A DNA stretch of 63,806 bases, counting the filler, from Welwitschia mirabilis (Eukaryota), in NCBI GenBank assembly GCA_051453625.1. It is 8 parts of one record of this genome, joined end to end, with 100 filler letters (N's around TTAATTAATTAA, not from the genome) between each part and the next. Parts side by side here need not be neighbours in the genome. Positions count along the whole stretch, not along the records: positions 40,755 to 45,861 come from JBOZIK010000001.1; 7 more parts are not named here. One strand, 5' to 3'. The notes beneath the pieces are model-generated. The model made no database searches and was not told the origin of the DNA. It saw only the letters and a program-made list of their open reading frames with translations. Shown here piece after piece: positions 7,561 through 54,890 of the stretch (the first letter of the stretch is position 1; each line of letters starts with the position of its first letter). Made by a program: the position numbers and the translations under genes.

Positions 7561-7599
7561 ATCATACAATTCTGGAAAATCCATCCTTATTCTTCTCTT

Positions 7600-10200: not shown

Positions 10201-13200
10201 AGATCCATTTTCTTGCTCTAATATGCCTATTTATAGATGCAGTGATAGAGAGTTTGTTATTCGTTCTTTTGCACCACCTATCTAGTTGTTATAGCCACTT
10301 TCCCTTTCTGTAGGATAGCTTCACTTAACTGACATGCATCACAAATTTAGATGATAATAATCTATAATGTATTATAATAATGTCATAATATATTACTCAA
10401 CATATTCTTCATTAATTTAGTAAGAACACAGCATAAATGTACATCCATTTCTAGGTCATCACTTATTTATAGATAACCTTATCTAAGTTCTATATTTTAC
10501 GTACACATTTTTTTAATAGAATTTAATTTTGAACGAGAGGAGGAGTAGTATAATACTCAAAAGCCAAGTGTTTAAGAGCTTGGTGAGGAAGTTGCTAGCA
10601 TGCAATGTGAAACTCACATCATTTTCTCTTTGTTGTTATGTAACTAGTTACTTCAGTGGGGGTTTGTAAATAATCCCAAATCAATCATCCTCTACTATAT
10701 CTAATGGTGGTGATGTAAAAAAAACAAAAGGTGAAAATGGCTTTAGACTTCATGCATATACAAAATGCAAAAGAGACAAATGAGAACAGTAATAATTTAG
10801 AGGAAATTTTTCAAATGACAAACGTGTGATCATAAACTTGGAATTTCGTTAAAATATTTTTGTAAAAATGGTAAACACATTTGAATAACTATATATGATA
10901 AGAACTTTTACTTAAAAATTCCTTTTACCTCTGCCTTAAATAACTAGATATAGAAAGAAGGTTTATGAGGCTAAAGATGTGGAATCTAGGATTTTAGAAG
11001 TGTCGAGATCAGTAGGGGTGGTTTTGATCTGGGAGCTGTAGCACACAGGGGGGCAGTGTTGGCTAGGTTTTAGACACTCAAGAAGTTTTATTCTTACTTT
11101 AAAGTTGCTTCAAAGTAGATTCTAAGGTGGGGCTTTAGCCATTAATATGAAGATAACATAGTTCTATAGGGAAAGGAAAACCCCCTTTTTGGACATAGAT
11201 GAAGATGCGTGTCTAGAAATAGAGAAGAAAATTCAATATAGCTTGAGAGATAAATTCATTTCATTAGGCCCTAGGCCTAGATTAGATCTCATCAGGGAAT
11301 GAATAGCCACCAAGTGGAGTTAGTAAAGTATGGGTTATTACCCTGCTAGAAGGCTTGGTCCTTTTTCATCTTAATAATGAACATGAAAGAAACAAAGATA
11401 TTACTAGAGGATTATGGTTCTTTAGAATAAGAAGACAAGAACTAGCTAAATGAACATAAGGATGCAAGTGGACCTGCATTTGTTTAAGAAATTACCCATT
11501 TGGATTTGAATACATAGATTCCTCCTTGAGTTCTAAGATGAAGATCTTCTAAAGAGAATCACTTCTCAATTTGAAAAACTAATTAAACTAAATAGTATTG
11601 CCATTAAACAAAATAGACTATTTCTAGTAAGATTTTGCATCTATCTTAGCCTTGAAGAAACCAAAGGGATTCAACCTATTAAGTTTAGTCCAAATGAGGA
11701 ATGTACAAGTTAGAAATTACCTACAAGAACCTCCTAGATGTGAGACATGTGAAAAGATTAAATACAAATCAAGGAAATATGTTAGAATAGAAAAAAATGC
11801 ATATACTATGGGAAAAAAGGCCATGAAAAGGATGAATGTAGGAAGAGATAAAGAGAAATTGATCATGAGCGGAAAGAAACTTACTCCTTCTATGGAAAAT
11901 CAGAACACAGACAAAGTGAGTGTTGGCATAAATAGAAAAGAGAGAAAATGGTCAAGAATACAATAACATATCCTAAGTAAAATAAAGACAAAGAAAACTA
12001 TAAGGACAATCCATTCTAGCACCTATCAGAAGAGGAGGGAGACATCCCCTAATTTAAGAAATAAGTAAACAAAGATGAGTTAAATGATGTTGAAACTCAC
12101 ACAAAATGTAGATCCAGTAATAGAGTGTTATGAAATAGGAAAATGGTAGAAAATATGGCAAATAGTTCCCAGGCAACAATCAAAGAAAAAACATCAAGGG
12201 GCACCCAAAAAGTAATAAAAATAGACCTAACGGAGTGCCTCTTTTGGAACTATAGGGGTTTAGGGTCCTCCTATAAAAAGAAGACTTTAAGAGATCTAAT
12301 TAGGAAGTATAACATAAATTTAGTTTGCTAACAAGAGATGAAGATATACAATAACATGATATTAGGTAATTTCTAGTAGCAATGGAATAAATTTACCTTG
12401 GCAGCACAAGGAAACTCAAAGAAATGATCACACTCATGAAAAAGTAGTCAAATTTAATCTATAGTAGGAAATACCATTTAACAATCTACCTCAAAGAAAA
12501 AGGATAGTCTATTACAAACATGTATATTTCACAAAACAACAAAAGAATCAATGCTACTATAACTACAGAGCTTAGTTATAAATAAAGCTAAATAACTAGT
12601 TATGAGGGATTTTAACCAATGCCTTCATAGATGGGAAAAAAATAGTGGGCGAAAACTAGAACAGCAAGGGAGCTGAGATCCTTAGAGACTTCATGGTGCA
12701 AGGGGATCTTTTAGATATTCTAATCATAAGACATAAATTCACATGATCTAATAGAAGAACTAGAGGTAATCAATTTATGTCCAGAATTGACATAATTCTG
12801 ACCAAGAAAGAAATAACTAAGATGACTGTTAAAGCATGGGGCCTAAACAGAATAGCTTATGATCATAGATCAATCAGATTCAGAATTGATATGGTAATAC
12901 CCCTTAGATCCCCCTTTAAAATGGATAGATCTTGGCTCTTAAGGGAAGAAACTAAGAGGGTATTTAAAAAGATTTGGGATCAATATGATGGTACCCTATC
13001 AATTACCTTTTTATAGATGGGTTTAAACACTCTCAAGACTTAAGGGATGGAGATAGAAGGAGAGAGAAAGGTTAAATTTAATAAGAAGCTAGAGTAAGAA
13101 TTAAGGGAGATTCAAGTAGAGTAGAAACGTGGAGTAGACCAGGATAGTATTCGCACAAAGCAATATACATGCCTTTTAAAATTACAAGAAATAAACTTAG

Positions 13201-16200
13201 ATGAAGAGCATTACTGAAGGGAAAGGTCTAGAATTAAGTGCTACAAGAAGGGGACAAGCATACTAAATTTATATTCTAATAGAATAATCAACACTAGATA
13301 AATAATAGAATCAAGAAGCTCATAATCAATAAACAAGTGATTAAAGATGATAAGGACATTACTGTAGAAATGAAGATCCATCTCAAAAACATATGGAATG
13401 GGAAGATATCATCCTTGAACTAATTTAGATAGATAAGAAAATTTGTAATGAGGATAATGCAAGCCTAAACAAGTCAATAGGCAAGAAAGAAGTACAAGTA
13501 GTAATTCAATTAATGAAGAATAACAAAGCCCTTGGGCCAAACAGGTGACTAGTAGAATTATTCAAGTCTCATTTATCCCTCATAAGAGATATCCTTCATG
13601 ACATTAAATAAGAAATCTTCACCAACAAGCACATTCCGATAGAGATTGACAAGACTCAAGTACTTGTAATATTTTGTACAAAATCTTTGTAAACAAATCA
13701 TAGGACTATAAACCCTTAGGTATTTGAAATATTCTATACAAAATCTTCATAAAAATAATGGTAGGTTGTATTACCTCCTACCTCCCAAGGTGATCTCTGT
13801 GAATCAAGTTGGCTTTATCTAATCTAGGTACATTTAAGATCAAATCCTTCTAACTCAAAAAATTATTCATTCTATCAAAAAACATAAATTTCCTTTACTT
13901 CTTGCTAAATTNNNNNNNNNNNNNNNNNNNNNNNNNNNNNNNNNNNNNNNNNNNNNNNNNNNNNNNNNNNNNNNNNNNNNNNNNNNNNNNNNNNNNNNNN
14001 NNNNNNNNNNNGGTACATTTAAGATCAAATCCTTCTAACTCACAAAATTATTCATTCTGTCAAAAAACATAAATTTCCTTTACTTCTTGCTAAATTAGAC
14101 ATAGAAAAGGCCTATGATTATGTGATCTAGAAAGCCTTCAGTTCTATCTTAAAGAAAACTAGCTTTAACTTTGATAACACTAACATCTGGTGAAACATGC
14201 AAGCTTTACCCAACTTCATCATAGAGGTTAATAGCTATAGATCTAAAGTTTTCTTAGTAGGCCACAGATTAAGGTAGGNNNNNNNNNNNNNNNNNNNNNN
14301 NNNNNNNNNNNNNNNNNNNNNNNNNNNNNAAATTCTCAAAAGGAATAGATTCTCAGGGATTAAAATAGAAAGCTAAATGTTCATTAATAATCACTACACA
14401 GATGATATAAACATCATAATTCAAGGCTCCTATCAATAGGCAAAAGCCACTAAAAACACTATAAACCTCTTTGCTAAGGCCACAGAACTCTGGACTAACT
14501 AGAATAATTCTAAAATACATATCCTTGACAAAAGCATTAGGAAGAGGAGTGATATTGCTAGAATCTTAGATGCTAAGATGGGGAATCTATAAGACATCTA
14601 TCTATGAATTCTGCTTAGAAATTAGCATAAGTCCCTAACTTGGAACCTTATCTTAGAGAATATTCAAAGGAAATTCAATACTTGATTCTTTCAAAAGTCA
14701 AGATTATCTCAGTAAATACCTAACTAATTTCTTTTTCAGGAATTTAGCCTCCATTGTTCCCCTCCCCCTTTCTTTTGTCAAGTTTATNNNNNNNNNNNNN
14801 NNNNNNNNNNNNNNNNNNNNNNNNNNNNNNNNNNNNNNNNNNNNNNNNNNNNNNNNNNNNNNNNNNNNNNNNNNNNNNNNNNNNNNNTGATATCACTAAC
14901 ATCTCGTGAAACATGCAAGCTTTACCCAACTTCAGCATAGAGGTTAATAGCTATAGATCTGAAGTTTTCTTAGTAGGTCACAGATTAAGGTAGGAGAACC
15001 CTTTATCCCCTTATCTCTTTCTATTTGTTATGAATTTTTTATAGGAAATGCTCAAAAGGAATAGAGTCTCAGGGATTGAAATAGAAAGCTAAATGTTCAT
15101 TAATAATCACAACATAGATGATATATTCCTCATGATTCAAGCCTCCTATCAATAGGCAAAAGCCACTAAAAACACTATAAACCTCTTTGCTAAGGCCACA
15201 GAACTTGGGACTAACTAGAATAAGTCTAGAATACATATCCTTGACAAAAGCATCAGGAAGAGGAGTGATATTGCTAGAATCTTAGATGCTAAGATGGGGG
15301 ATCTATAAGACATCTATCTATGAATTCTCCTCAGAAATTGGCATAAGTCCCTAACTTGGAACCTTATCTTGGAGAATATTCAAAGGAAATTTAATACTTG
15401 ATTCTTTCAAAAGTCAAGATTATCTCAGTAAATACCTATCTAATTGCTTTTTCAGGAATTTAGCCTCCATTGTTCCCCTCCCCCTTTCTTTTGTCAAGTT
15501 TATTATTAAAAAAATCAACAAAATGCTAAGGGAGTTCATCTAGTCTAAAAAAAAGGACAAAAGTTGCATTCATCTCTATAATGAAATCTTCTTGCTTGTC
15601 CTAAGGATGCAAGATGTTAAGGAATTCATAAACTAGAAGAGTGCTTACTCAAGTGACCTCACAAAATCATAAGGAAACTACTTATAGAAGGACAACCTTA
15701 GAGTAAACTAATCAATTATAAATACTCATACTAGACTACAAATGTAGAGGAGTATTATATTTGGAAGCATCTATCAAAATCCAAACGAGATTTAATCGAG
15801 CTAAATACACTTACTAATGACATAGCTAAATATATACTAATTAAGAAATATGGTAAAGATGAAGTTAATAGATGATTCTAGTGGGGGTAGATCCTTGATA
15901 AGATTAAGATCTTCTACTAGCTCAAAGGTCATTATAGACTATTAATAAGAGACTAGTTAATCAAACATGGCATCTAAGTTTCCTCTACATGTCTGATTTG
16001 CTAGTCAAATCAAGAAGATATTTACCATCTCTTCCATTACTGTAAGTGAAGAACAGACTTAATGGAATTCATAATAACTTATTACAAGACTAAATAGGAA
16101 ACTAAAAGGTAGATACTGAATGGGATTTGCCTGAAATTTTGGTAGATTTAGTGTACCTGCAATGATCTAATTTTTAGTAATACCCCTTCCTCTTCCCTAT

Positions 16201-16523
16201 TAATATAACAAGAAGAATTTGGTGGTATNNNNNNNNNNNNNNNNNNNNNNNNNNNNNNNNNNNNNNNNNNNNNNNNNNNNNNNNNNNNNNNNNNNNNNNN
16301 NNNNNNNNNNNNNNNNNNNNNNNNNNNNTAGGAAACTACAAGGTAGATACTGGATGGGATTTGCCTGAAAATTTGGTAGATTTAGTGTACCCGCAATGAT
16401 CTAATTTTTAGTAATACCCCTTTCTCTTCCCTATTAATATAACAAGAAGAATTTTGTGGTATCACTTGTAAATTAGATGGCAATGGGATTACTCTGATGT
16501 ATGAACCAATAAATCTAAGCCTT

Positions 16524-16965
16524 TTTTAGGGATGCTCGGCTCTATGGGATAAGGTGCAGCACCTAGGATAGGAATACCTACTATAAAAACTAAAGGGGAA
16601 GACTGATTATGATATTACTCCATTTTAGAGATGATGAAAAGCAGATATAACTACCTTTAAAAGAATTTCAATTGAAGTTAGTGAGGAATCTTTGGCCTAT
16701 CTTTGAAAAATTTTCTTAATTACAAAGGGTAAAGAGTGGCCTTCCATTTATTCTTAGGAGGCATTCCTAAACTTTCCAGTGGCCACATAAGTAAAAAAGC
16801 ACTTCCACCTCCTATGGCTTAGAGGCTAAGTTAGTGGACAAATACTTTAATTAGTCAGGCTAATGCTTGAAGCTATCCAATTTGCACTTTATTTTTCTTA
16901 AGGCCCCAGACCAAGGGAATCATGTTAACTTGCCTTAATTTTTCATTCAAATGTTGAGAAAGAAG
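16524..16965 (+). pseudogene. PMD/Transposase_32-like accessory domain in LINE copy A
   Basis: GCSALWDKVQHLG*EYLL*KLKG...ITPF*R...ISIEVSEESLA...HISKKALPPP...KLVDKYFN*SG*CLKLSNLHFIFLKA...VNLP*FFIQML aligns collinearly with copy B 41626-42132. Confidence 0.65.
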
Positions 16966-17461
16966 GATAATACCTAGCACTTTAAACTTATAATGGCTCT
17001 TTGGAGAGGTAGGAGGGACTCTAAGGTGAGTAGGGAGGCTCCCTCCTCTTTCCCACACTGTAGGATAATGACTAAGGCCCAATAGCCAAAGGGGGAAAAA
17101 AGAAAACTAAAAATGACAAAGTTCTCAAGAAGAGTAACAGAATGAGCTGGGTGTTTTACAACCTCAGAGGAAGATGACTTCGCTTCTATCTGAGGAAATT
17201 CATGAATAGGTAGAATCGATTCCACCTCCCCATGAAGATTATATGATAAAATAAAAGGAGGAGCAGGTCTAGCTTGAGCAGGATCAAGAGAAAATCCCTT
17301 ATAAGAAGTTAGAAAGCTCAGAGTCTAGTAAGGAGACAAAGTTATAAAACCAAATAAATTCCAATATAGAGAGAGAAAATTAGACTGTACAAAAAAACAT
17401 TGATATCGAGCAAGCAATGAGGGAGGCTTTGCATGTTACAATTTGAGGGATGAAGAGATGC

Positions 17462-17681
17462 TCCTTCCTGATCCTTAGCATCATTCACAGAGCTTATCTA
17501 AGTATCATCAAATTGAGCTTTTAGAAGAAGGCATTTGAAACTTCATCCTAATAAGAATAAAGTAGGAGCAAAGAAGTTTAAAGAGGTGAACCAGGCCTTT
17601 GAGGCCCTGATGGATGAAATGGGTTAGCTTCTGATCAAGTGCCACCATACTCACTTATTCCCAAGTTGTAGGGGATATTAA
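17462..17681 (+). pseudogene. DnaJ J-domain at the 3' end of LINE copy A (stops, 1-nt frameshift)
   Basis: SFLILSIIHRAYLSIIKLSF*KKA / LKLHPNKNKVGAKKFKEVNQAFEALMD...LFPSCRGY* matches J-domain helix II, the HPD loop (here HPN, one G>A change) and helix III. Confidence 0.8.
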
Positions 17682-18229
17682 TCTGTCATTTTCTCCTAGT
17701 TTCATCTCAGTTTTTCCTAATTCTATTGTTAATCACATTAGTAATAGGATTGAGACCTGTCCATCTAATTTTTGCTATTAATGCCTTTTGTTTTCATTCT
17801 AGTATTGTCCACGATATTACTCTGTGGATTTGTTATGTTATAGTCACATTTCCTTGTACTTCCTTACAAATGGGTGCTTTCATCCCATTATCTATAATTA
17901 CTACTTTCTAATATAAATTTGATTTTACTATTTTAAAAAGAAAAAAAAAGGAAATAACTAATTTGGTCAAGAAACAACCAATTTGAAATGTCTTTGGGAT
18001 TAACTTGATCATGTAGCTATGGAATGAAGACATGGATTTAGAGAAAGTGATTTAAAACCCCATTCCACTTTAGATTAAATCTTTAAGTTTTCCTATCTAT
18101 TTTTAACCACTATGAATGTTCTATCTATTTAAATTGAATATTTTTCCCTTTTTTTTAATTATAAGTAAGTAAGCTTTTGTGTCATATGATTGTCTAGCAA
18201 CACTTGGGATTATAACATAAGGATGCAAC

Positions 18230-23511: not shown

Positions 23512-24569
23512 GTTCTCCAATCTCTCTTTTTCCTAGTTTGCCCTTTTATAGGAAAAGTGAACTGTAGGGTTAGTGGACTGCTTCTTCTGTAGTAGTTGTG
23601 ATTAGAGGCAATACACTGTTAAAAATAAAGACTTCTGAGCATCATTAATCGTTTTGAAAATATTGTAACAAAGACTTCGTTTAGTGTTTTTCGAAAAAGA
23701 GAACTTATAACTTTGGTTTTTGGAAGACCTTCTTTATGTGATTCAAACAAGCAGTGCAATTTATGTTTCTGTTCCTTTTTTGCTATATTGCAAACTAAGA
23801 ATAGAAAGCAGTATGATATTTTTCTTGTTGTAAGCAGAATATCAGTCACTGAATTTTACATTATGGTCTAGAATGAAGCATGATTCTTTATCTTTTTCTT
23901 TGCCTTTTGTTTTCAAAAAGTTCAGGAATATTAGTCACAATTTTATCACCATTAAATCTTAAAGGATTTCGTCCAGCAAAGAAATGTTACAGTGAAAGTT
24001 TAAATGTTGCTAAGTCGTGAGTCGTGACCCTTTTGTCACCATTGTTTCTTAGCGATTTTCATCAAAAGAAGAAAAATGATGAAACAATAAAAATTTAAGA
24101 GAGCGTTTCTGGAATGATACTGTAAGTCATGTAGTGTTTAATATTAACATTGTGTTAGATACGCCTGTAACGTAGTGGACTAGTGGTGTTTCCATCGTTA
24201 TAAATATAGCTTATAAACGTATTGGGGTTTGACTGTTTGAGCCACTCAAGAGTTCATGCATCCCTACCTTTTCTGTTTTGACTTATGATAGCCTTATCTT
24301 ATATCTATTTTTTTCCTCAAAAACTTAAATGATTTTAGTTTGAATTTCATTAATATTTCTATCCAACCATTTTCAATGCAAGTATATTCAATATTTCTCT
24401 TCCTTCTTAACATACAATATTTCGTATATGTTTCCAAGATCCTTAGATAAATCTTGGATAAAGACTAGGTGCCAAATGATGAATACGTTTATGCTTAAAA
24501 CTGATTAAATACAAAAAGCCATAAAACATTCTTGAGCTTTGTATTGGGATGATTTATAATGGATTCTGG

Positions 24570-32174: not shown

Positions 32175-34814
32175 GATTGCAGGGACATTTGTGAAAAAAT
32201 GATTTTGCCTAATTTATTGATTTCATAAGTCTTGCTTTTGAAAAACAATTTAAGGTAAGTAAACATTATTTACCCACAAAGTTTATTCCTTGTAGGCACG
32301 CATTACCTAGCAGTAATGTGATCCATGGAAACTCTGTTCTGTATGATAGCGATTTGAAGAAATAATACTGAAAAGCAGTGATATGTTGTGACTTGCCAGC
32401 AGTACAAAAAGTAATTCCAGATTTTATGTTACAAAGACTGCAAGGTGCATGCTCACATGCAAACTTCTAGATGCAAGTGATTTTAGAATGAGAAGCAGAA
32501 ATTTGGGGGAGGCTTTGATTCCCCTTCCTACATGAGAGGATCATCATGTATTAACTGCGAGTGGTTGTTCCTCAGGTGCATAGTCCACAAGGTCTGAAAG
32601 GTTCTTCTGATACATTGAGATAAATCATTTATATGTCTCTGCAGTCTGTGTTGGGAAGCCTGTCTCGGATATTAGTCATGAAACACATGGGAGTATAGAT
32701 TTTTGACATTCCAGTGGCTGTTGAAAGGGGGTTCCTCCTCATCTGACTCGTTCATTTGTTAACAAGGCTACAGAGGATCTCTAAGGGTTTATCAACAGGA
32801 CTTAGGAAGTTTAGGAATGACTTTCTGTTGAGTATTCTCTGACAGCATTGGTAGAATCTTTGATAAATTTGTGATTACGCACAGGGTATGACTGCATGTG
32901 ACCATTCTTTTTGGGCCATTGGTTTTATAAGGTGGGGCTAAAGTGTATTCCATTGGAAGTCTTAGCATTTTGCAATGGAGCAATCAATGTTCTACCGGCT
33001 TTCCAAGGAAATTCTCCTGCCTTGAGGCTTTTGACATAAATTTATCTGTTCACCTGTGCATGTTTTCATTTCTTTCTTTTCATAGTAATCAAATTTATGT
33101 GAATAAGAATTAATGAACAACAATTGATCCTGCGTAAATAATAAACTTATTTAGTTGTTTTTTTTCTTATGGCATGCTTCCTTCAGGGCTTTCTACTTAC
33201 CTTTTCATGGAACTTCTATTAGCGCCTTGATGTACATGCAATTAGTTGTCAGTTTTCTTAAAATGTGTTTTTTCTATCAATGCTGCACTCAAAGCTTCCT
33301 TCCTCACTTACTCACTCAACAGATTTTCCAAAATGTTGTTTGACCTAAATTTGGCAGATGTCATTGACTTGATTTAATGAATTGTTTGTTCCTTATCATC
33401 ATGTAGAGAACTCAATTAAAACAATGCTTCAGTCTCAAATTCATTTCTTGAGTTTTGTCTCCCATAAAAAACTGGATACCTACTGTTTAGGTACTTAAAT
33501 TCATCTTTAAAGTTAAGAATGAACAAGAGCCTTTAGGAGGAATCAAACAATTTGCTATTTATTACTTTTTTGTGGTGGGTCACAGGATACTGACCTCTTA
33601 CGGCTTGCAACAGACTCAAACCATCTGCCTGTTTTTTCAAACATAACTGCACAGAGAACTGAAAAACAATACATAAGTTTTTTTCCCCTCATCAAGCTCC
33701 TTCAAGTAAATGATTTCCGCTATAAATAATATCTATAAATATCTTGTTTAATTTTCACATCCATTAATTGTTTTACCTGTCGTAGTGTTAAGATTGTAAA
33801 CAGCTCAACAATTAACATACAAAGTATTGACTGCTTTGATTTTAAAATTTGAAAAGATGCATTGTCAATACAGGGCAGAACAACTAATGCTTTCATGTGT
33901 CATTATCATTTAATCTCCCATCCCTTTTAAACCATATTTTTGACTTCAACTTTTAATAAGTGCAAAAACTTGCTGCTTGTCTTTTCCTCATGCCATGACT
34001 GTGGTTACATGTAAGTTGCTCTCTCAAGATGGGATTTGGATGATCTGACCCAGTCTGTGATACATCCGCTTGTCTAAACTGTTCAACTCGCCATACAGTG
34101 CACCTTTCTGAGAGAATGTAAGTACATCACAGTCTGCGTGTGCTGTCTTAACTAGAGTTGACACAGTTGGGAGAGGCATGGTGTAGTACTGGCTCTAATT
34201 TCAATCAATATCTATGTTATGGATATCCTTAAATCCCATAAACATTAACAACTATTTAATATTGATTGTGATATGGTACACAAATTCCTTAGATTCTTCT
34301 ATTCATGAGTTGGAGAGTCACATTAGTAGCCTCATGTTCGGATGTGAATGATTTTGTTGAGCTTGGAAGTTTTGTATGTTTAAGAGCACCTACATTCACC
34401 AATTTGTCTATGGCCTTGCCCTTTTTCCAGCTCCCGTACTTTAACTATAGTCATCGCAGTAGTGACAGCTAGTGACAGCTCTATCCTTCAATGCCAATTT
34501 GATAAATTGCTTATGATCATGTTTTTTAACCACTGTGAAACGTGATTGTATAATCCTTTCTCTTGCCACAATTTTGACATTTTATGTTTTATTTTCTTTG
34601 CATTCACGCTTGACATCTTCTGTCCTTCGAGCTGGGCATTGCTAGTCATTAATCTTTTATGATGCTGTTATCAATTTTTTAATAAGCATGAAGGATTTTG
34701 TTGTGTATACACATGTTCAAGTAATTGAAATTGTCTCTAGCTTTTCTTTGGTGTATAGTTATTTGTTACATTCCTTGTATACTTTCTTATTGCCCGGTTT
34801 GGTTTAACATGCAG

Positions 34815-35868
34815 GTGGAAAGGATACAAGCGACAAAAAAATATTGGTTGACATGTTATTTTGGGCAGTTGACAATCCAGCACCAGCAAACTATATGCTA
34901 ATTTCAGGGGACCGTGATTTTTCTAATGCACTTCATCAGCTCCGATTGAGGAGATATAATATCTTGTTGGCAAGGCCTCCTCAACATGTGTCCCCACCTC
35001 TTATCGGTGCAGCACAAAAGGTTTTGCTTTGGGGAAACTTAGCAAGGGGTGAACCAGCTTTACAACTGTCATCTGCTGGTAATCATTCAAGTGAGAAAAT
35101 ATCAAAGGCTAGCTCTTCAATTGAAATTGGTGGAGGAGACACAAAAGAGATTATTAGACGTACACATTCAGAACCAAATCCACTTTCTTTCTCTTACCAT
35201 CCAACACATTCAAACAATTTTGAGAAAATGGCAGAAGAAAAGCAATCAGAAACTACTTGTGCTTTCGAGCATTATTCTACCAACAATTCTGTTACTTATG
35301 ATCAGAGAAATTATGTGGCTGCAAATAATCACCTTCAATCTAACGCTCAACCTTTTGCCATGGATGGCTTGTCTCGTGCCAGTATAATTGAAACAAGAGA
35401 TAAAATGGCTGCTGATTCTATGAAGCAGATGCCATATACTCATCCAAATCAGAAACTTAATCATTTTGAACCACACTACTCAATGCCAAATCAATTTCTA
35501 TCTCAGGAAAAAAGCATCAATAGCTATGATTCTCATTTAGGTATCACATTACAGGCTTTAGAATTCCTGAGGGAAAATCAGCTATCACCAACTGAAGAAA
35601 ATATCAGAGATTGCATTCATTATGGAAACCTGTGTAGTTCAGCATTCGATATTCACTATCTTTTGGAAACTGCCATTGAGAAAAAGCAGATATTGATTCT
35701 GAGGGTTGGGGGAGCGTCCCGTTTATTCATTAAACCAAATACTCAACTATGGAAATGTGTGGACCCTTTCAATATGTACGATAACTACCCAAGGGCAGCA
35801 TGGGATGGATTTGAAAATTTTTTGGCAAGTTCTGAAGGGCATAATTTATTTGCGAGATCTGAGAAACG
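34815..35868 (+). CDS. NYN-domain endoribonuclease, coding exon 2
   Basis: Acceptor TGCAG at 34814 joins in frame to give HVPSG-GKDTSDKKILVDMLFWAVDNPAPANYMLISGDRDFSNALHQLRLRRYNILLA. Open to the donor CG|GTAAGT at 35868/35869. Confidence 0.95.
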
Positions 35869-35960
35869 GTAAGTTGATAGTATTTTCTTCTCTATATTTG
35901 TCTTCTTAATTTTCGCAGAGTTCAAAACGCTTCAAAAACACGTTTGCCTTTGGTGAACAG

Positions 35961-40637: not shown

Positions 40638-40972
40638 TTCTGCCACTTGAAGACNNNNNNNNNNNNNNNNNNNNNNNNNNNNNNNNNNNNNNNNNNNNTT
40701 AATTAATTAANNNNNNNNNNNNNNNNNNNNNNNNNNNNNNNNNNNNNNNNNNNNAGTAAAGGTATTTTGTTAATTATTCAGGAGAGGACTATGAAATAGA
40801 ATAAAAATTGGGGTGAAACCACCCCTGAGGAAATAGACTAAATACAAGGGACTGCCTATTTAGAAGAGTAAAAGCATAGAACTACTAATAAGCTAGAGGC
40901 AAAAATGCCCTACACTACCAGAAGTTACATAATGCTTAAGTTTGAAAAGAAAAAGACCTAGGAGGAAGAGAA

Positions 40973-41190
40973 TTAGAGTCCTCTATAGAATGGAAACAAA
41001 TCACCATGATTGTGGTTGAGCAAGAAATAACCCATATCATTAGAGAGTATCTCAACCTCCTTGAATTCTTTAGCACCTGCTAGATTTTTATCTGGATGAA
41101 ATCTGAGGGCTGTCTTTCTATAGATGGACTTGATAGCTTGAGTAGGGCTCTGTGAAAGAGTCCTAATGTGATAAATGGATATCTCTTTAG
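40973..41190 (-). pseudogene. DnaJ J-domain at the 3' end of LINE copy B
   Basis: YPFITLGLFHRA / AIKSIYRKTALRFHPDKNLAGAKEFKEV-EILSNDMG...LFPFYRGL*: intact HPD motif, a frameshift after helix I and a small deletion in helix III. Confidence 0.85.
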
Positions 41191-41625
41191 ACCTTAAATT
41201 GTTCTCAACATAACTTCCCATCGAGCAACATTCATGTGAATGTCCTCTTGAGGGTGAGGTTGAATTTCTACTAAAGAAGAATCTAAGGTATAGTTCTAAG
41301 TAGGGATGGGGCTCGTTACGAGCTAAGGATAGGTCTAGTAATGCCTACCTTACTCTTAGGAGTTAGGGGCAGGAATTTTTGAATTAGCTCTTAAGCTGTC
41401 CCATGGATAGGCTCCTAAGCTATCTCCTGTTGGGTTGGGAGCAAAAACATCTCCTCTAAATAATGAACTAGGGATTCCTTCTATAATGGCTCTTCTTTTG
41501 GAGGCCCTCCTTGGAGGAGTCTAATATGGATGTAATTGGAGAGGAGGCAGAGGGGCCTCTTTTACCCTGATTTCTTGGGCTACTCTCCACAGAGCTAGAA
41601 CTAAATCCAAATGCCTTGAGGAATA

Positions 41626-42132
41626 TTTCCTTTAAAGAGATTAGATAACAAAGAATGGAAAATTCACCTAACACCCTAGGTCAAGGGCTTTAAGAAAAGG
41701 AAAATAAATACCTAAAAGTTTAGAGTAATTCCCAGACTGAATGATATAGTGGTTAACTAACTTTATGCCTAATCCTCATGGGGGTGGTAGCATCTTTCTA
41801 CTAATGTGCCTTCTTGGAAATTTAGAAGCCCAATTAGGGAAGAAGTGAAGCACTTCACATTACTCTCAGCTTCCAAACTGAATACATTCTCCTTCTGTAG
41901 GAATCTTCAACACCCTAGAGAGGGAATCTTTAGTGATCTCTATAGGGATTCTTCTGAATGTTATGCACCTGTCTTTCCATCATCTATAAAAGGGGGCGAT
42001 ATCAACCCTGTGATCTCCCCTAAGCTTGTGCAGGAGGGGTTCCCATCCCATAGCTTGCACTTTTTCCCACAAGACAGGGCAACCTTCAAAGAGGTCAGGG
42101 TCAAAAGTCTTGATTGTAGGCATGGCTTCCAT
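41626..42132 (-). pseudogene. PMD/Transposase_32-like accessory domain in LINE copy B, in the same frame as the post-zf-RVT motif
   Basis: MEAMPTIKTFDPDLFEGCPVLWEKVQAMGWEPLLHKLRGDHRVDIAPFYR*WKDRCITFRRIPIEITKDSLSRVLKIPTEGE...HISRKMLPPP*GLGIKLVNHYIIQSGNYSKLLGIYFPFLKAL...VNFPFFVI*SL. Confidence 0.7.
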
Positions 42133-45100
42133 TGTGAGTTAGATTTGGAAATGTTAGTATTTCATCTTCTTTATAGTATTTAAAGGTAAAGGTAAGGATA
42201 CATTATTAAAAATCAGATCATTTTTAATTCTTTAAATCTACCAAAACATCAAGCAGATCCTATCCGTTAATTGTGTATCAAGGGTGTTGCAGGTCTGATG
42301 ATACTTCTTCATAATGAAGATTAATTATTTAATTCAAGTGTAATGATGAAATAAATACTATGCTATTTTAGGACTTAATTGGCAGATGGGATAGTTTATG
42401 TCCAGTTGAAATCCTCTTTTGAGTAATTGGTCTCTAGTTAAGATTCTATGGTGGTCCTTTAACTAATAAAAGACTTTAGTTTTTTTCGGAATTTGACCTT
42501 TCTATACTTATTGTAGGAGTCATCTTTTACATATTTCTTTAAGAAAAGCTATTNNNNNNNNNNNNNNNNNNNNNNNNNNNNNNNNNNNNNNNNNNNNNNN
42601 NNNNNNNNNNNNNNNNNNNNNNNNNNNNNNNNNNNNNNNNNNNNNNNNNNNNNNNNNNNNNNNNNNNNNNNNNNNNNNNNNNNNNNNNNNNNNNNNNNNN
42701 NNNNNNNNNNNNNNNNNNNNNNNNNNNNNNNNNNNNNNNNNNNNNNNNNNNNNNNNNNNNNNNNNNNNNNNNNNNNNNNNNNNTGGGTAATAATCTCTTA
42801 TTTTTAGAGATAAATTTGGTGATGATCTTTTTCTTCTTAATCATATAAACTCCTTTAAGATCTTATTAATTTTTTGGATAATATTTCTTAGGGGAAGTAA
42901 TAATGGAAGCTATGTAACATAAATAAGAAATTAAACAAGAGTTTATGAGGATGATTTTAGTTTTGAATAAGAGAAATTTTTTCTGCCAAGAGTTCTGCTA
43001 CCTTTGAATAAACTTAATGATGTAATTTTAAGTAACGGTCTTATGCCAGTTTCACAGGGGAATTCTAAGGTATATATCCTAAAGGTCTCCTAATTTTGCA
43101 TTAGGATTTAGATGATTTTGCCCTCTCTAATAAATTTTTTGTCCAAAGTGTGGATTCTTGACTTATTCTAGTTGGTCTATAAACCTATAACTACTATAAA
43201 AAGTTTCATAGAATTTTTTATTGCTTTTTTTTTATTGGCATGAAGCCCTGGTTATGATGATGGTATTATCTANNNNNNNNNNNNNNNNNNNNNNNNNNNN
43301 NNNNNNNNNNNNNNNNNNNNNNNNNNNNNNNNNNNNNNNNNNNNNNNNNNNNNNNNNNNNNNNNNNNNNNNNNNNNNNNNNNNNNNNNNNNNNNNNNNNN
43401 NNNNNNNNNNNNNNNNNNNNNNNNNNNNNNNNNNNNNNNNNNNNNNNNNNNNNNNNNNNNNNNNNNNNNNNNNNNNNNNNNNNNNNNNNNNNNNNNNNNN
43501 NNNNNNNNNNNNNNNNNNNNNNNNNNNNNNNNNNNNNNNNNNNNNNNNNNNNNNNNNNNNNNNNNNNNNNNNNNNNNNNNNNNNNNNNNNNNNNNNNNNN
43601 NNNNNNNNNNNNNNNNNNNNNNNNNNNNNNNNNNNNNNNNNNNNNNNNNNNNNNNNNNNNNNNNNNNNNNNNNNNNNNNNNNNNNNNNNNNNNNNNNNNN
43701 NNNNNNNNNNNNNNNNNNNNNNNNNNNNNNNNNNNNNNNNNNNNNNNNNNNNNNNNNNNNNNNNNNNNNNNNNNNNNNNNNNNNNNNNNNNNNNNNNNNN
43801 NNNNNNNNNNNNNNNNNNNNNNNNNNNNNNNNNNNNNNNNNNNNNNNNNNNNNNNNNNNNNNNNNNNNNNNNNNNNNNNNNNNNNNNNNNNNNNNNNNNN
43901 NNNNNNNNNNNNNNNNNNNNNNNNNNNNNNNNNNNNNNNNNNNNNNNNNNNNNNNNNNNNNNNNNNNNNNNNNNNNNNNNNNNNNNNNNNNNNNNNNNNN
44001 NNNNNNNNNNNNNNNNNNNNNNNNNNNNNNNNNNNNNNNNNNNNNNNNNNNNNNNNNNNNNNNNNNNNNNNNNNNNNNNNNNNNNNNNNNNNNNNNNNNN
44101 NNNNNNNNNNNNNNNNNNNNNNNNNNNNNNNNNNNNNNNNNNNNNNNNNNNNNNNNNNNNNNNNNNNNNNNNNNNNNNNNTTTTTTATTGCTTTTTTTTA
44201 TTGGCATGAAGCCCTGGTTATGATGATGGTATTATCTACATAGTGATTGTTGATAAAAGTTTGACCTCCACTTCTAATTCCTGTAACTCCATTTCTTCTT
44301 AAAAAACCTATAAAACATTCATTACAAAGAGAAAAATATATGGGGATAGGGGGTCTCTTTGTCTTACCCCTCTACCTACTAAAAATAAATTTGATTTATG
44401 ATTGTTGATCTCCACACTGAATTCAACTAAAGATTGCATATCTAGCCATAAATTAATAACATCTTGAGGAAAAATAGTTTTTCTAAGGATACATCCTAGT
44501 GCTTGCCAACTAATTAAATCATAAGCTTTAGCAATATATAACTTAGTAATAAGGAGAGGACATTTATATTTTTTTAATAAAATGAATGATTTCATGAGTC
44601 AGGAGGATTTGGTCTTAGATATACCTAGATCAGATAAAGCTGGCTTGGTTTTCTAAAATCACATTTAGAAGCAGGAGGTGATACAACCAACTATGATTTT
44701 TGCAAAAATTCTATGAAGAACATTACATACACCTATGAGCCTAAAATTATCTGATTTGCTAGTGTTCCTTTTCTTAGGGATAAGAANNNNNNNNNNCCTA
44801 GTTCTATTCATTTCCTTAGGGACTCATTTATTATGAAAAACTTCCTGCATCACATCCTAAAGGTCATTCCCTAATATAGAGAAATAAGATTTAAAAGTTT
44901 AATTAACCATCCATCAAGGTCAAGGGCTCTATTATTCTTCATAGATCTTATAGAAGCCAAGACCTCCTTTCTACTTAGAGGTTTAGCAAACATAGAGTTG
45001 TCTTCACTCGAGATTTTCTTAATTTATGGAANNNNNNNNNNNNNNNNNNNNNNNNNNNNNNNNNNNNNNNNNNNNNNNNNNNNNNNNNNNNNNNNNNNNN

Positions 45101-47889
45101 NNNNNNNNNNNNNNNNNNNNNNNNNNNNNNNNNNNNNNNNNNNNNNNNNNNNNNNNNNNNNNNNNNNNNNNNNNNNNNNNNNNNNNNNNNNNNNNNNNNN
45201 NNNNNNNNNNNNNNNNNNNNNNNNNNNNNNNNNNNNNNNNNNNNNNNNNNNNNNNNNNNNNNNNNNNNNNNNNNNNNNNNNNNNNNNNNNNNNNNNNNNN
45301 NNNNNNNNNNNNNNNNNNNNNNNNNNNNNNNNNNNNNNNNNNNNNNNNNNNNNNNNNNNNNNNNNNNNNNNNNNNNNNNNNNNNNNNNNNNNNNNNNNNN
45401 NNNNNNNNNNNNNNNNNNNNNNNNNNNNNNNNNNNNNNNNNNNNNNNNNNNNNNNNNNNNNNNNNNNNNNNNNNNNNNNNNNNNNNNNNNNNNNNNNNNN
45501 NNNNNNNNNNNNNNNNNNNNNNNNNNNNNNNNNNNNNNNNNNNNNNNNNNNNNNNNNNNNNNNNNNNNNNNNNNNNNNNNNNNNNNNNNNNNNNNNNNNN
45601 NNNNNNNNNNNNNNNNNNNNNNNNNNNNTCAAATGAGATTTTACTTAAATCCTTGCCTATAAGAATTCTATTAATTTTAGACATAATCAAATATTTATCT
45701 ACTCTTCCATTGGACAAAGTGTACTTGCACCCAGTGATAGGGATGTCTGTAAGAGAGTTTTTTGTCAAAACGTCTTTTAGGATTGAGGCTTCTTTGGAAT
45801 TTTAATTGTCATCCTCAGATTTTTCCTAGTGATGAAGAAATTGATTAAAGTTACCCAAGATNNNNNNNNNNNNNNNNNNNNNNNNNNNNNNNNNNNNNNN
45901 NNNNNTTAATTAATTAANNNNNNNNNNNNNNNNNNNNNNNNNNNNNNNNNNNNNNNNNNNNTTTGCTTATGGTAGCATATGCTCTGATTGTGTTTGGTCT
46001 TCTCACAAAACGTACATGTTTCCTTTGGCTTTTTCTTAATGTTAATCAGCCATTTTCTACATTCTTCTCTTAAATGACCCAATATTCCACAATGTGAACA
46101 TTTCTTTTTATGAGGAGCACATCCCTAAAAAGATGTCCTAATTTTTTTAAACCCATGAAAGGAACTAGAAGATTCTCATAAGTAATGTCAATCTCACAAA
46201 TACTCCATTTAGATCTAAATTTTATGTATTGAATCTACTTTGTATTCTTTAGGCTCATCCCAATACAAAATTTAGTTAACACTAGTTTTATCTATTTAAT
46301 AGTGATCCTGTCAAGTTTGATAAGTTCACCAAAATGAGCCACCATTTTTCTTAAGGGATATTCATCCCAAAACTCTAATGGAAACTTGTGAATGTGGATA
46401 CAACTTGGTAACCTCTTAAATAGGTTTTGGTTCATTTATACCCGTGACATCCATTTAGCTAGGGCAAGACCTCAAACCNNNNNNNNNNNNNNNNNNNNNN
46501 NNNNNNNNNNNNNNNNNNNNNNNNNNNNNNNNNNNNNNNNNNNNNNNNNNNNNNNNNNNNNNNNNNNNNNNNNNNNNNNNNNNNNNNNNNNNNNNNNNNN
46601 NNNNNNNNNNNNNNNNNNNNNNNNNNNNNNNNNNNNNNNNNNNGATGAAACAAACTTTTGATTAGACAGTATTTAAGTTTCTTATCAATATCACAGCATG
46701 CATCTTCATTAATGTCTAAAAATAGGGATTCCCCTTTCCTAAAGAACTAATTCTTTTGCATTTTAGGGCCAAACCCCTTGAAAAACCCCCTAAAAGTAGA
46801 TTAGCATTGAGTATTAAAAATATTCTGCAACTTACCCATAGTAGGCCTATCTGGCTGCTGAAATCACCCCCACATACTATGACAAAGGATTAAAACCACT
46901 TCCATTGATCTGTGGCCTTCTAAGCCTCACTCCCTCCTATGCTTCAGATTTGCCAAACCCTAGTAGAGTTTCAAAACCTTAGCAGAGCTCCTCGGTGTAG
47001 TTGTTATAATTGAAAATTATTTTATAAAGATTGGATACCTTAGTTAATATTTTATAATGCCTTGAATATTAGCATTCATTTAGAAAAGTGTGATGGTAGT
47101 ATTTTTTGGGAGAGGTATGTTCATAAAAAATTTTAAGTTCAACAATTCCATTCATTTATTAAGAAAACTTCTTTATTTCAAAATCATAATCGTTCAATCA
47201 ATATAACCTTATAAAAGATAATATATCTTAGAAATNNNNNNNNNNNNNNNNNNNNNNNNNNNNNNNNNNNNNNNNNNNNNNNNNNNNNNNNNNNNNNNNN
47301 NNNNNNNNNNNNNNNNNNNNNNNNNNNNNNNNNNNTCTTAGAAATATCCATGTATAAAATTAAGTAATTTCATAGTAATGTACTATTTAAAAGAATAATA
47401 GACTACTAATAAGATGATAGTCCAACCAGGGTGGTGGTGTTCATCTATTTAAGAGATTCTGGTTTTAAATCCTTAAATAATTGCTTGACATACTATAAGG
47501 TCTTAAATGTGATTAGATTTTTTATTTCAGTGATCATAGTGGTCATAGTTCTAGAGGAAGGCATGGTCACTAAAAAGTTTTAAGTTTAATGTTTTGCTCC
47601 TAATAGAATAGTGGATCAAAAATCAATTTAATTATTTATTATATTTATAATCAATTAGAAGTATATAAATATTAATCAATGTTCAACATATCATTAGAAC
47701 ATGCATTATAATTAATTTTAGAGTCCTATATTTAATCACAAACTTCAATTTGCAACTACATTTATATAATCTATGGATATTAAAACTTATATCTAAAAAT
47801 GTTTAATTAATTATTAGTTATAATGTGGTGTCAAAATCTAAATCGTAATTTGATATTAACTTAAAAAAATCCAAAATACATAGGAATAA

Positions 47890-54790: not shown

Positions 54791-54890
54791 NNNNNNNNNN
54801 NNNNNNNNNNNNNNNNNNNNNNNNNNNNNNNNNNTTAATTAATTAANNNNNNNNNNNNNNNNNNNNNNNNNNNNNNNNNNNNNNNNNNNN

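What the first reader, a model, noticed from the sequence alone, without database searches (positions are those of the whole stretch)
40973..41190. J-domain with intact HPD at the 3' end of LINE copy B
Seen: PFITLGLFHRA...IKSIYRKTALRFHPDKNLAGAKEFKEV. It aligns to copy A (FLILSIIHRA...IKLSF*KKA/LKLHPNKNKVGAKKFKEVNQAFEAL) and shares a family-specific tail (MG.xL...H..LFP..RG.*) ending in a stop at the same position. Conservation concentrates on functional J residues while codons differ, which suggests past purifying selection (inference). There are no introns and no G/F or zinc-finger region, so it is not a type I/II host DnaJ gene.
Basis: partly seen in the sequence, partly recalled or inferred. 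Interest (0 to 1): 0.85.

Follow-up and report, generated by a model that had tools for sequence, protein, structure and literature searches.

The report
Plant LINE family carrying a J-domain
Two dead copies of a plant jumping gene (a LINE retrotransposon) both end in the remains of a J-domain, the module that recruits the cell's Hsp70 chaperone, and the way the copies differ shows the module was once a working, selected part of the element.

Summary
On the minus strand, 41184-40973 holds a decayed J-domain. HPD is intact (41098-41090). The domain has a 1-nt frameshift and a 12-nt deletion in helix III. A second copy lies on the plus strand at 17459-17681 and reads HPN.

The two are not independent pseudogenes. 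They close two colinear, about 6-kb, heavily decayed L1-type LINE copies with DUF4283/CCHC, RT and zf-RVT.

Between zf-RVT and the J-domain lies a roughly 190-codon domain related to Transposase_32/Athila-ORF1. It starts at an ATG shared with a Welwitschia transcript ORF, so a third ORF of about 386 codons is likely.

Differences between A and B fall mostly on third codon positions, in the J blocks as in RT and ORF1 (J: 52, 65 and 38 of 89 identical; permutation p=0.0004). The module was therefore translated while the lineages diverged.

Public DNA runs of two organisms give thousands of contigs at 80% likeness or more, over the J part too. Their consensus overhangs read as canonical helices II and III.

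No intact copy was seen and no function was tested. Paper searches found no LINE with a J-domain. I rate it a new variant of a known kind.

The parts
40973..41184 (-). Copy B J-domain remnant plus family tail. Helix I (YPFITLGLFHRA) is at 41181-41146 in the ORF3 frame. Helix II to the stop is in the -1 frame.
   Evidence: (Pfam DnaJ 27.7 bits, E 2.8e-6).
41090..41098 (-). HPD codons CAT CCA GAT of copy B.
41135..41145 (-). 11-nt span between helix I and helix II of copy B. Copy A has 12 nt here, so B carries a 1-nt deletion and frameshift. Some family contigs carry an extra base behind 41143.
   Evidence: table 4: 8 contigs and 26.3 of 153.5 summed depth in X1; 1 contig in X5.
41053..41054 (-). 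Site of a 12-nt in-frame deletion in helix III of copy B, the four codons that follow FKEV in copy A. Contig overhangs starting here read VNQAFEVLSD.
   Evidence: columns 208-219. table 7 (overhangs before 41055: 64 contigs in X1, 40 in X5, 4 RNA reads in X12).
40973..40975 (-). TAA stop of the J frame in copy B, aligned with the TAA of copy A at 17679-17681.
40756..40972 (-). 3' untranslated part of copy B, cut off by an artificial linker gap at 40755. It is also repeated in the genome.
   Evidence: table 2 (summed depth 1070/398 and 737/507) and table 3 (69 contigs at 40892)..
41185..41559 (-). Poorly conserved linker of copy B with a basic patch (PPRRASKRR). It is in the same frame as the middle domain and helix I.
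   Evidence: No A/B tblastx block here. Lowest depth bin, 142, at 41296-41430.
41560..42132 (-). Copy B middle domain, related to Transposase_32/Athila ORF1. It starts at ATG 42132-42130, the proposed ORF3 start.
   Evidence: 6 hits; P0002 64% identical, E 2.5e-29; Met1 of P0002 aligns to 42132.
42202..42498 (-). Copy B zf-RVT region, the end of ORF2. In-frame TAA codons at 42156-42154 and 42141-42139 follow it.
   Evidence: (zf-RVT E 0.059 in B).
44311..44781 (-). Copy B reverse transcriptase core.
   Evidence: RVT_1 E 9.8e-10, 38.9 bits, cut-off 29.6.
45634..45825 (-). Copy B endonuclease C-terminal block, colinear with copy A 12636-12827. Assigned by motifs seen by eye, not by Pfam.
   Evidence: No Pfam endonuclease hit.
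45966..46761 (-). Copy B ORF1 remnant (DUF4283-like and CCHC knuckle).
   Evidence: DUF4283 E 4.1e-4, zf-CCHC E 0.09; both below cut-off.
17459..17681 (+). Copy A J-domain remnant. It has HPN at 17544-17552, internal stops, a frameshift after KKA and a TAA stop at 17679-17681.
   Evidence: (Pfam DnaJ 29.6 bits, E 7.4e-7).
16483..17028 (+). Copy A middle domain. The ATG at 16483 aligns with the start of P0002 and with the B ATG.
   Evidence: (P0002 49% identical, E 5.5e-18).
11147..16462 (+). Copy A ORF1, endonuclease, RT and zf-RVT. It is decayed, and unmerged contig overlaps lie around its N gaps.
   Evidence: (zf-RVT E 4.4e-8, 34.1 bits; DUF4283 E 0.0018; RVT_1 E 0.03).
17682..17949 (+). Copy A 3' untranslated part, ending in an A-rich tract (AAAAAGAAAAAAAAA, about 17936-17949). 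This is the likely poly(A) end of the element.

Best explanation
The J-like stretch is the decayed C-terminal J-domain of the last reading frame of an L1-type plant LINE family. The host is probably a gymnosperm: the closest protein is from a Welwitschia transcriptome.

Element plan, seen in both window copies:
- ORF1: DUF4283 plus a CCHC knuckle.
- ORF2: endonuclease, reverse transcriptase, zf-RVT.
- A stop codon, a short spacer and a shared ATG.
- A frame of about 386 codons, with a Transposase_32/Athila-ORF1-like domain, a loosely conserved basic linker and a J-domain (helix I, basic helix II, HPD, helix III).
- A short family-specific tail, TAA, about 250 nt of 3' UTR and an A-rich end.

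Shown: the two copies are colinear, and they diverged mostly at third codon positions in every block, J included. The J-bearing frame was therefore translated and under purifying selection in the active ancestors. The family is highly repeated in two organisms. Both window copies are dead (stops, independent frameshifts, HPD changed to HPN in A, a 12-nt deletion in B).

Inferred: in active elements the HPD loop and basic helix II dock on host cytosolic Hsp70 and trigger ATP hydrolysis. Hsp70 then clamps onto whatever the N-terminal domain holds, namely the LINE proteins or RNP. This would help their folding, assembly, remodelling or nuclear entry.

I put about 60:40 on a separate ORF3 against a C-terminal extension of ORF2.
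For: - J identity: Pfam DnaJ in both copies. The best PDB matches are J-domains, aligned through YRK.AL..HPDKN..GA..FK. The Atlas feature search gives DnaJ clusters at 0.90.
- Colinearity: tblastx blocks run in the same order from ORF1 to J, A 11147-17675 against B 46761-40979. Pfam finds DUF4283, RVT_1, zf-RVT and DnaJ in both copies.
- Contiguity: J and zf-RVT of B lie in one N-free piece, 40756-42553.
- Selection: identity at codon positions 1/2/3 is 52/65/38 of 89 in J and 86/97/46 of 135 in the middle domain. Permutation p, taking the best of three phases, is 0.0004 and 0 of 20000. pS is about 0.8 against pN about 0.33 in frame, and the out-of-frame readings lack this gap. RT, EN and ORF1 blocks show the same pattern.
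- Independent decay: the frameshifts lie at different places in A and B.
- Family level: 15967 contigs (X1) and 10755 contigs (X5) were laid on 40756-44786 at 80% likeness or more. Between 91 and 107 contigs in X1 cover the listed J positions. Summed depth in J bin 41026-41160 is 2784/2088, against 1100-2300 in most bins over the middle domain and zf-RVT (535/395 at 42106-42240) and 4000-8900 over the RT core. Overhang consensuses translate by hand to LSYRKKALQL before HPD and VNQAFEVLSD after FKE.
- ORF3 start: Met1 of P0002, a Welwitschia TRINITY ORF, aligns to B ATG 42132 and next to A ATG 16483. Stop codons lie just upstream in both copies.
- Frame continuity: the middle domain and helix I of B share one frame across the linker.
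Against: - No intact copy was seen. The B frame has 14 stops before helix I.
- Linkage of J to the LINE rests on 2 of 2 window copies. The public contigs are too short to bridge RT and J (table 8: listed pieces 199-388 nt).
- Protein searches with the B J frame found nothing (longer, near). P0002 found no longer relative. No full-length ORF3 or ORF2-J protein is therefore on record here.
- Only about a sixth of the summed depth spanning 41143 carries the frame-restoring base.
- Helix IV is absent or replaced in both copies.
- AlphaFold models were of too low confidence to use: pLDDT 40.4 for the B frame and 37.8 for a middle-domain relative.
- Few RNA reads were laid (99 and 28), and none was 95% alike or more.
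- tblastx blocks are picked by protein similarity, which favours the in-frame signal. The permutation control corrects only for the choice of phase.
- Hsp70 recruitment is pure inference.
Confidence: 0.75

Rival explanations
1. Passenger sequence. A host J-protein exon (or the whole middle-domain-plus-J piece) was picked up once by 3' read-through or template switching. It was then carried along as untranslated 3' baggage of the LINE and never served the element.
For: - 3' transduction and gene-fragment capture by LINEs are common (established knowledge, recalled).
- The J-domain lacks helix IV and runs into an odd tail, as expected if translation ran from an exon into non-coding sequence.
- No intact copy was seen.
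- No protein relative with this architecture was found.
Against: - Divergence between A and B in the J blocks concentrates on third codon positions exactly as in RT and ORF1. Untranslated baggage would not show this.
- The tail and its stop are conserved between copies that differ at about 40% of bases.
- The middle domain and helix I share a frame in B.
Confidence: 0.13
2. Host or domesticated gene. The middle domain plus J-domain is a cellular gene family. The two window loci are old duplicates of one chimeric locus, a LINE next to or fused with that gene, and not transposed copies.
For: - Relatives of the middle domain exist as annotated proteins, for example Ginkgo Gb_10421.
- Only two linked copies were seen.
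Against: - Thousands of contigs at 80% likeness or more cover the J, middle-domain and 3' UTR parts in two organisms.
- Homology between A and B fades within about 20 nt after the stop and does not extend further into the flanks.
- The whole LINE body, not only the module, shows coding-type divergence.
- Copy A ends in an A-rich tract.
Confidence: 0.06
3. Independent processed pseudogenes of host DnaJ genes that landed by chance beside two LINE copies, or a chance resemblance to a J-domain.
For: Processed pseudogenes of J-proteins are common (recalled). Each Pfam hit is close to the cut-off.
Against: - Both J stretches sit at the same place in a colinear 6-kb element. They share about 1.2 kb of upstream homology, a non-J tail and the stop.
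- Two independent Pfam and PDB matches fall at colinear positions.
Confidence: 0.02

Closest known systems
Plant L1-clade LINEs (ORF1 with DUF4283/zinc knuckle; ORF2 with APE endonuclease, RT and zf-RVT; some with an added RNase H domain)
   Same: The backbone domains come in the same order. The family is highly repeated. Copy A has an A-rich 3' end. Plant L1 elements are known to take up extra domains such as RNase H (recalled, not read here).
   Different: About 1.2 kb of extra coding sequence follows zf-RVT: a Transposase_32-like domain and a J-domain, probably as a third ORF. No RNase H (RVT_3) match was found. None of the paper searches listed in the Full report section found a LINE with a J-domain.
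Class C (type III) J-domain proteins
   Same: It has a J-domain with HPD and basic helix II as the only chaperone-related part. No G/F region or zinc finger follows.
   Different: It is encoded by a retrotransposon. The J-domain is at the C-terminus. Helix IV is replaced by a short family-specific tail. The window copies are broken, and activity is untested.
J-domains of polyomavirus T antigens (a parasite-encoded J-domain that recruits host Hsc70; recalled, not tested here)
   Same: The idea is the same: a selfish genetic element carries its own J-domain and does not rely on host co-chaperones.
   Different: That is a DNA virus of animals with an N-terminal J-domain. No sequence relationship was examined. 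Here the carrier is a plant non-LTR retrotransposon.
Athila additional ORF / Pfam Transposase_32 (PF20167) and ATHILA ORF1 (PF03078)
   Same: Relatives of the middle domain touch these families: P0005 matches PF20167 at E 1.5e-5. Atlas gives Transposase_32 at 0.88 and ATHILA at 0.87 for P0004. A basic GG(K/R)KRK-like patch follows the domain in Ginkgo P0003, in copy A and in the sunflower Athila aORF (RGGKRKL; PMC11728184, passages read).
   Different: The window sequences themselves give no Pfam hit. All scores are below the curated cut-off of 45 bits. The known carriers are Ty3/gypsy LTR elements, not LINEs, and none is reported with a J-domain.
LINEs with other acquired C-terminal domains, e.g. 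insect R1 with a tobamovirus-like SF1 helicase (PMC4686597; seen only as title and start of abstract in the listing)
   Same: It is a precedent for a non-LTR element gaining a foreign domain downstream of RT.
   Different: The domain, the host kingdom and the likely role all differ.

Membership tests
J-domain (Pfam PF00226 DnaJ) | Profile match at or above the curated cut-off (27.8 bits) | tested here: met
   Copy A fragment 17520-17681 scores 29.6 bits, E 7.4e-7. The copy B frame scores 27.7 bits, E 2.8e-6, just below the cut-off. Both are partial matches (profile 21-56 and 13-47 of 63) because of the frameshifts.
J-domain (Pfam PF00226 DnaJ) | HPD tripeptide in the loop between helices II and III | tested here: met
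   Copy B has CAT CCA GAT at 41098-41090. Copy A has HPN, CAT CCT AAT, so it does not meet the feature. No frequent variant at the B HPD bases is among the 40 best-supported differences shown; 967 more were not shown.
J-domain (Pfam PF00226 DnaJ) | Complete four-helix domain readable in one frame | tested here: not met
   Both copies are frameshifted between helix I and the HPD. B lacks 4 codons of helix III. Neither has a recognisable helix IV. The AlphaFold model of the B frame has pLDDT 40.4.
J-domain (Pfam PF00226 DnaJ) | Stimulates Hsp70 ATPase in an HPD-dependent way | not testable with these tools
   This needs biochemistry on a natural intact family member.
Class A/B (type I/II) DnaJ/Hsp40 | G/F-rich region after the J-domain, and for class A a CxxCxGxG zinc-finger domain and a C-terminal substrate-binding domain | tested here: not met
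   The stop codon comes 26 codons (B) and 30 codons (A) after FKEV. No DnaJ_CXXCXGXG or DnaJ_C hit appears in any sense frame of either copy.
L1-type plant LINE | Reverse transcriptase (RVT_1) followed by zf-RVT | tested here: met
   RVT_1 scores 38.9 bits in B (cut-off 29.6) and zf-RVT 34.1 bits in A (cut-off 27.5). The partner copies give weak hits only, E 0.03 and 0.059.
L1-type plant LINE | APE-type endonuclease upstream of RT | tested here: inconclusive
   Pfam gives no hit. A colinear block, 12636-12827 against 45825-45634, and motifs seen by eye in the translations (WNYRGLG, RDFN, YDHRSI) look like the recalled APE motifs.
L1-type plant LINE | ORF1 with DUF4283 and a CCHC knuckle | tested here: inconclusive
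   DUF4283 scores 18.4-22.4 bits against a cut-off of 27.2. zf-CCHC has E 0.09. The blocks are colinear in both copies.
L1-type plant LINE | Poly(A) or A-rich 3' end and target-site duplication | tested here: inconclusive
   An A-rich tract lies at about 17936-17949 in copy A. Only a 9-bp repeat, AAATAACTA at 17952 and 10938, could be a target-site duplication; a match that short could be chance (not calculated). The 3' end of copy B is lost in a linker gap.
L1-type plant LINE | Dispersed high-copy family | tested here: met
   15967 and 10755 contigs were laid at 80% likeness or more in runs of two organisms.
Transposase_32 (PF20167) / ATHILA ORF1 (PF03078) | Profile match at or above the curated cut-off (45 bits for PF20167) | tested here: not met
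   The window's middle domain gives 0 Pfam families even at E up to 10. Of its 6 HMMER relatives, only P0005 touches PF20167, at 25.4 bits. The Atlas scores of 0.88 and 0.87 are leads only. I call it 'related to', not a member.

The most novel reading that the evidence does not exclude
An active LINE lineage of gymnosperms (Gnetales-like) encodes its own Hsp70 co-chaperone. This is a third protein that joins an Athila-ORF1/Transposase_32-like domain to a working J-domain and brings host Hsp70 to the retrotransposon's RNP. As far as my searches reach, it would be the first J-domain protein encoded by a eukaryotic retrotransposon. It would also link an accessory protein of LTR elements (Athila aORF) to a non-LTR element.
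Probability: 0.4. Interest if true: 0.8.

Novelty: new variant of a known kind. Interest (0 to 1): 0.62.

Why it matters
Retrotransposons depend on host chaperones, but they are not known to bring their own co-chaperone; some viruses do (recalled: polyomavirus T antigens, closterovirus Hsp70 homologues). A LINE family that kept a J-domain under selection would show that recruiting Hsp70 can pay for a non-LTR element.

It would give a natural handle for asking which step of LINE replication needs Hsp70. It would also add a case of module exchange between LTR and non-LTR elements, through the Transposase_32-like domain.

For annotation, it warns that many 'DnaJ domain' hits in large gymnosperm genomes may be transposon copies and not chaperone genes.

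Tried and rejected
- The whole genome of the window is not held.
- blastn of copy B against the window found no DNA-level match to copy A's J region. Only protein-level searches did.
- Protein index searches found nothing: the B J frame in 'longer' mode (131 candidates, none at E up to 0.001), the B J frame in 'near' mode (5 candidates, none), and P0002 in 'longer' mode (77 candidates, none). The word index is weak for decayed queries, so this is weak evidence.
- Pfam gave no family for the window's middle domain at E up to 10 and none for the endonuclease region.
- AlphaFold of P0004 with a 7-row alignment gave pLDDT 37.8. The B J frame alone gave 40.4. Both were too poor for a fold search, so none was run.
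- Rfam found no match at gathering score in the window.
- No RNA holder was listed for the stretch. RNA raw reads gave 99 and 28 laid reads, none 95% alike or more. This copy is not visibly expressed, and nothing follows for the family beyond low-level reads.
- Donor phylogeny of the J-domain was not attempted. No plant protein set could still be searched, and about 60 decayed residues would not resolve it.
- The target-site duplication search gave only a 9-bp match.
- The 3' UTRs of A and B show no clear similarity beyond about 20 nt after the stop.
- The ARCADE preprint found concerns the DnaJ central domain and genome size, not transposons (passages read).

Full report
**What the window is.** It is 63.8 kb of a draft eukaryotic assembly with about 32% G+C and 41 runs of N. 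Seven of these runs are 44 N + TTAATTAATTAA + 44 N, which are artificial linkers. No whole genome is held for it. It carries Ty1/copia pieces (rve, Pol_BBD) and a split NYN-domain gene, so it is a plant. The closest protein to the element studied here comes from a Welwitschia mirabilis transcriptome, and the next from Ginkgo. A gymnosperm, perhaps of the Gnetales, is therefore my inference.

**The observation.** On the minus strand a stop-to-stop frame, 40973..41344, reads ...IKSIYRKTALRFHPDKNLAGAKEFKEV..., then a tail ending YRGL and TAA.
- Pfam DnaJ matches it at E 2.8e-6 and 27.7 bits (cut-off 27.8).
- The best solved-structure matches are J-domains: dnj-12 at E 1.4e-6, then DNAJC5, Sis1 and DNAJA1.

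tblastn with the B peptide finds one more copy, on the plus strand near 17520-17675 (E 1.4e-9). It reads ...FLILSIIHRAYLSIIKLSF*KKA, then after a frameshift LKLHPNKNKVGAKKFKEVNQAFEALMDEMG*...CRGY and TAA. Its Pfam DnaJ score is 29.6 bits, E 7.4e-7, and its top PDB match is again dnj-12.

In the DNA alignment:
- B is one base short of A in the 12-nt span between helix I and helix II.
- A carries one extra base after KKA.
- B lacks 12 nt (4 codons) of helix III.
- The two TAA stops are aligned.

The damage is therefore independent in the two copies. An ancestor with a single-frame J-domain of canonical spacing (four residues between ...RA and IK..YRK) is implied.

**Context.** tblastx of 10-19 kb against the reverse complement of 40-48 kb gives a colinear chain of blocks from A 11147 / B 46761 to A 17675 / B 40979.
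- Pfam on the three sense frames of each copy, with stops read as X, finds DUF4283, RVT_1, zf-RVT and DnaJ in both copies. RVT_1 in B (38.9 bits) and zf-RVT in A (34.1 bits) are above their cut-offs.
- The endonuclease is not found by Pfam. It is visible as a colinear block and as motifs I recognise by eye.
- In B, zf-RVT, everything downstream and the J-domain lie on one N-free piece, 40756-42553.
- In A, the 100-N gap before the middle domain is flanked by nearly identical overlapping ends, 16095-16228 and 16329-16462. This supports contiguity.
- Copy A ends about 255 nt after the stop in an A-rich tract. A 9-bp repeat is at best a weak candidate for a target-site duplication.

These are two old copies of one L1-type LINE family. 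The J stretch is its 3'-most coding part, and the two are not independent pseudogenes.

**The piece between zf-RVT and J.** It has no Pfam family. An exhaustive HMMER search of 1.84 billion representative proteins gave 6 hits:
- P0002: 91 aa, 64% identical, E 2.5e-29, a Welwitschia TRINITY ORF.
- P0003: a 593-aa Ginkgo protein with two copies of the domain.
- Four unnamed proteins, P0004 to P0007.

One relative, P0005, touches Pfam Transposase_32 at E 1.5e-5, below the cut-off. The Atlas feature search puts P0004 next to Transposase_32 (0.88) and ATHILA (0.87) clusters, which are leads only. A paper on sunflower elements places Transposase_32 in an additional ORF of Athila elements, relates it to ATHILA ORF1, and predicts an NLS, RGGKRKL (PMC11728184, passages read). 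Similar basic patches follow the domain in Ginkgo P0003 (KGGRKRK), in copy A (PKGEKRKLK) and in copy B (PPRRASKRR).

**ORF3 or ORF2 extension.** Met1 of P0002 aligns to an ATG in B (42132-42130) and beside an ATG in A (16483). In-frame stops lie just upstream in both copies. In B the frame from this ATG runs, with 14 stops but no net shift, through the linker to helix I. I therefore favour a third ORF of about 386 codons: Transposase_32-like domain, basic linker, J-domain. One of the two upstream stops of B (42141-42139) is changed in most family contigs (A>T at 42141, 148.9 of 176.3 summed depth in X1). A read-through extension of ORF2 therefore stays possible.

**Was it ever functional?** For each gap-free A/B block I counted identity by codon position. 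Third positions are 0.30-0.48 identical in all blocks but the most conserved RT block (0.64). First and second positions are 0.51-0.83 identical. This holds in ORF1, EN, RT, zf-RVT, the middle domain and all three J blocks.
- Nei-Gojobori proportions for J are pS 0.81 and pN 0.33. The two out-of-frame readings of the same alignments give pS 0.37-0.58 and pN 0.36-0.47.
- A permutation test that takes the best of the three phases gives p = 0.0004 for J (52, 65 and 38 of 89 identical). For the middle domain it gives 0 of 20000 (86, 97 and 46 of 135).

The blocks were found by protein similarity, which biases towards such a signal. About four codons at the start of the Jmid block are mis-phased in A. 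The effect is still large, and it is the same in J as in RT. The A and B lineages therefore separated while the J frame was being translated and selected, that is, as active elements.

**Family level.** One search for sequencing runs found DNA runs of organism A (0.67-0.73 of the 31-mers) and organism B (0.10-0.22), and added raw RNA runs of organism A. I laid X1, X5, X12 and X15 on 40756-44786 at 80% likeness or more.
- 15967 contigs (X1) and 10755 contigs (X5) were laid, mostly under 95% alike.
- Every non-N bin is covered. Summed depth is 2784/2088 in the J bin 41026-41160. It is mostly 1100-2300 over the middle domain and zf-RVT (535/395 in bin 42106-42240). It is 142/135 in the linker bin 41296-41430 and 4000-8900 in the RT core.
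- The tool warns that summed depth is not a copy number. Even so, 91-107 separate X1 contigs cover the listed J positions.
- Overhangs of contigs that leave copy B at 41098 (58 in X1, 46 in X5) and at 41055 (64 in X1, 40 in X5) have consensuses which I translated by hand. They read LSYRKKALQL (X5: STYKKKALHL) directly before HPD, and VNQAFEVLSD directly after FKE. These are canonical helices II and III, and they restore the four codons B lacks.
- Eight X1 contigs and one X5 contig carry an extra base behind 41143, where B is one base short. This is only 26.3 of 153.5 summed depth there.
- RNA reads are few (99 and 28), none is 95% alike or more, and they lie on both strands. A few carry the same canonical overhangs.

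**Mechanism (inferred).** A J-domain with HPD and a basic helix II is, by established knowledge of the Hsp70 system, a device for docking on Hsp70-ATP and triggering hydrolysis, so that Hsp70 clamps a nearby client. At the C-terminus of a transposon protein whose N-terminal domain is shared with accessory proteins of Athila elements, and with an NLS-like patch, it would most simply deliver host Hsp70 to the element's own proteins or RNP for folding, assembly, remodelling or nuclear import. None of this was tested. Helix IV is missing, which may or may not matter.

**Comparison and novelty.** The backbone is an ordinary plant L1. LINEs with added domains are known: RNase H in plant L1 (recalled), and an SF1 helicase in insect R1 (PMC4686597, listing only). 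Parasite-encoded J-domains are known in polyomaviruses (recalled).

The following full-text searches returned no paper describing a J-domain in a LINE or other retrotransposon:
- non-LTR retrotransposon / J domain / plant
- LINE / DnaJ / retrotransposon / ORF2 / additional domain
- Welwitschia / LINE / DnaJ
- retrotransposon / 'encodes a J domain'
- LINE / gymnosperm / ORF3 / non-LTR
- transposable element / DnaJ domain / gene capture / retrotransposon

That library lacks most subscription journals, and Repbase-type repeat libraries could not be searched, so 'not in print' is provisional. I rate the finding a new variant of a known kind.

**Verdict.** Confidence is 0.75 that this is a family-level, formerly selected J-domain frame of a LINE. 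It is about 0.4 that it acted as a true Hsp70 co-chaperone. The two window copies themselves are dead.

Noticed in passing
10101-10200, 30111-30210, 40655-40754, 45862-45961, 54791-54890, 56690-56789, 62148-62247: Seven gaps have the form 44 N + TTAATTAATTAA + 44 N. These are artificial linkers with stops in all frames, so the window is joined from separate contigs and adjacency across these points rests on scaffolding only. One lies inside copy B, between ORF1 and the endonuclease, and one cuts off its 3' end.
   Followed up: partly
16095-16228 vs 16329-16462; 14012-14456 vs 14889-15170: Copy A contains near-identical duplicated stretches on either side of 100-N gaps. These look like unmerged overlapping contig ends, not biological repeats.
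   Followed up: partly
23211-23564 (+) and 34808-35869 (+): A host-like gene lies in two pieces about 11 kb apart. The first holds NYN profile positions 1-67. The second holds NYN 72-141 plus DUF7625 (E 2e-21). The interval holds copia-like ORFs (24694-26075), which gave no Pfam hit. The two LINE copies flank this gene in opposite orientation.
   Followed up: partly
55699-56073 (-) and 56193-56687 (-); 3193-3318 (-): These are Ty1/copia-type retrotransposon pieces: integrase core rve (E 3.5e-17) and Pol_BBD (E 6.8e-20). A gag-like ORF edge at 3193-3318 gave no Pfam hit.
   Followed up: partly
40756-44786 (family contigs): Differences between copy B and the family contigs are mostly transitions. 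In X1, A>G 196, G>A 224, C>T 161 and T>C 136 places, against 6-45 places for each transversion. This fits decay of methylated repeats in an AT-rich genome. The HPD-to-HPN change in copy A is also a G-to-A transition.
   Followed up: no
17952-17960 and 10938-10946: The 9-bp repeat AAATAACTA lies directly after the A-rich end of copy A and about 200 nt upstream of its first ORF1 homology. It could be a target-site duplication or chance.
   Followed up: partly
P0003 (Ginkgo Gb_10421, 593 aa): An annotated Ginkgo protein carries two tandem copies of the Transposase_32-like domain, each followed by a basic or low-complexity stretch, and has no Pfam family at E up to 1. It may be another transposon-derived or domesticated member of this domain family.
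   Followed up: no
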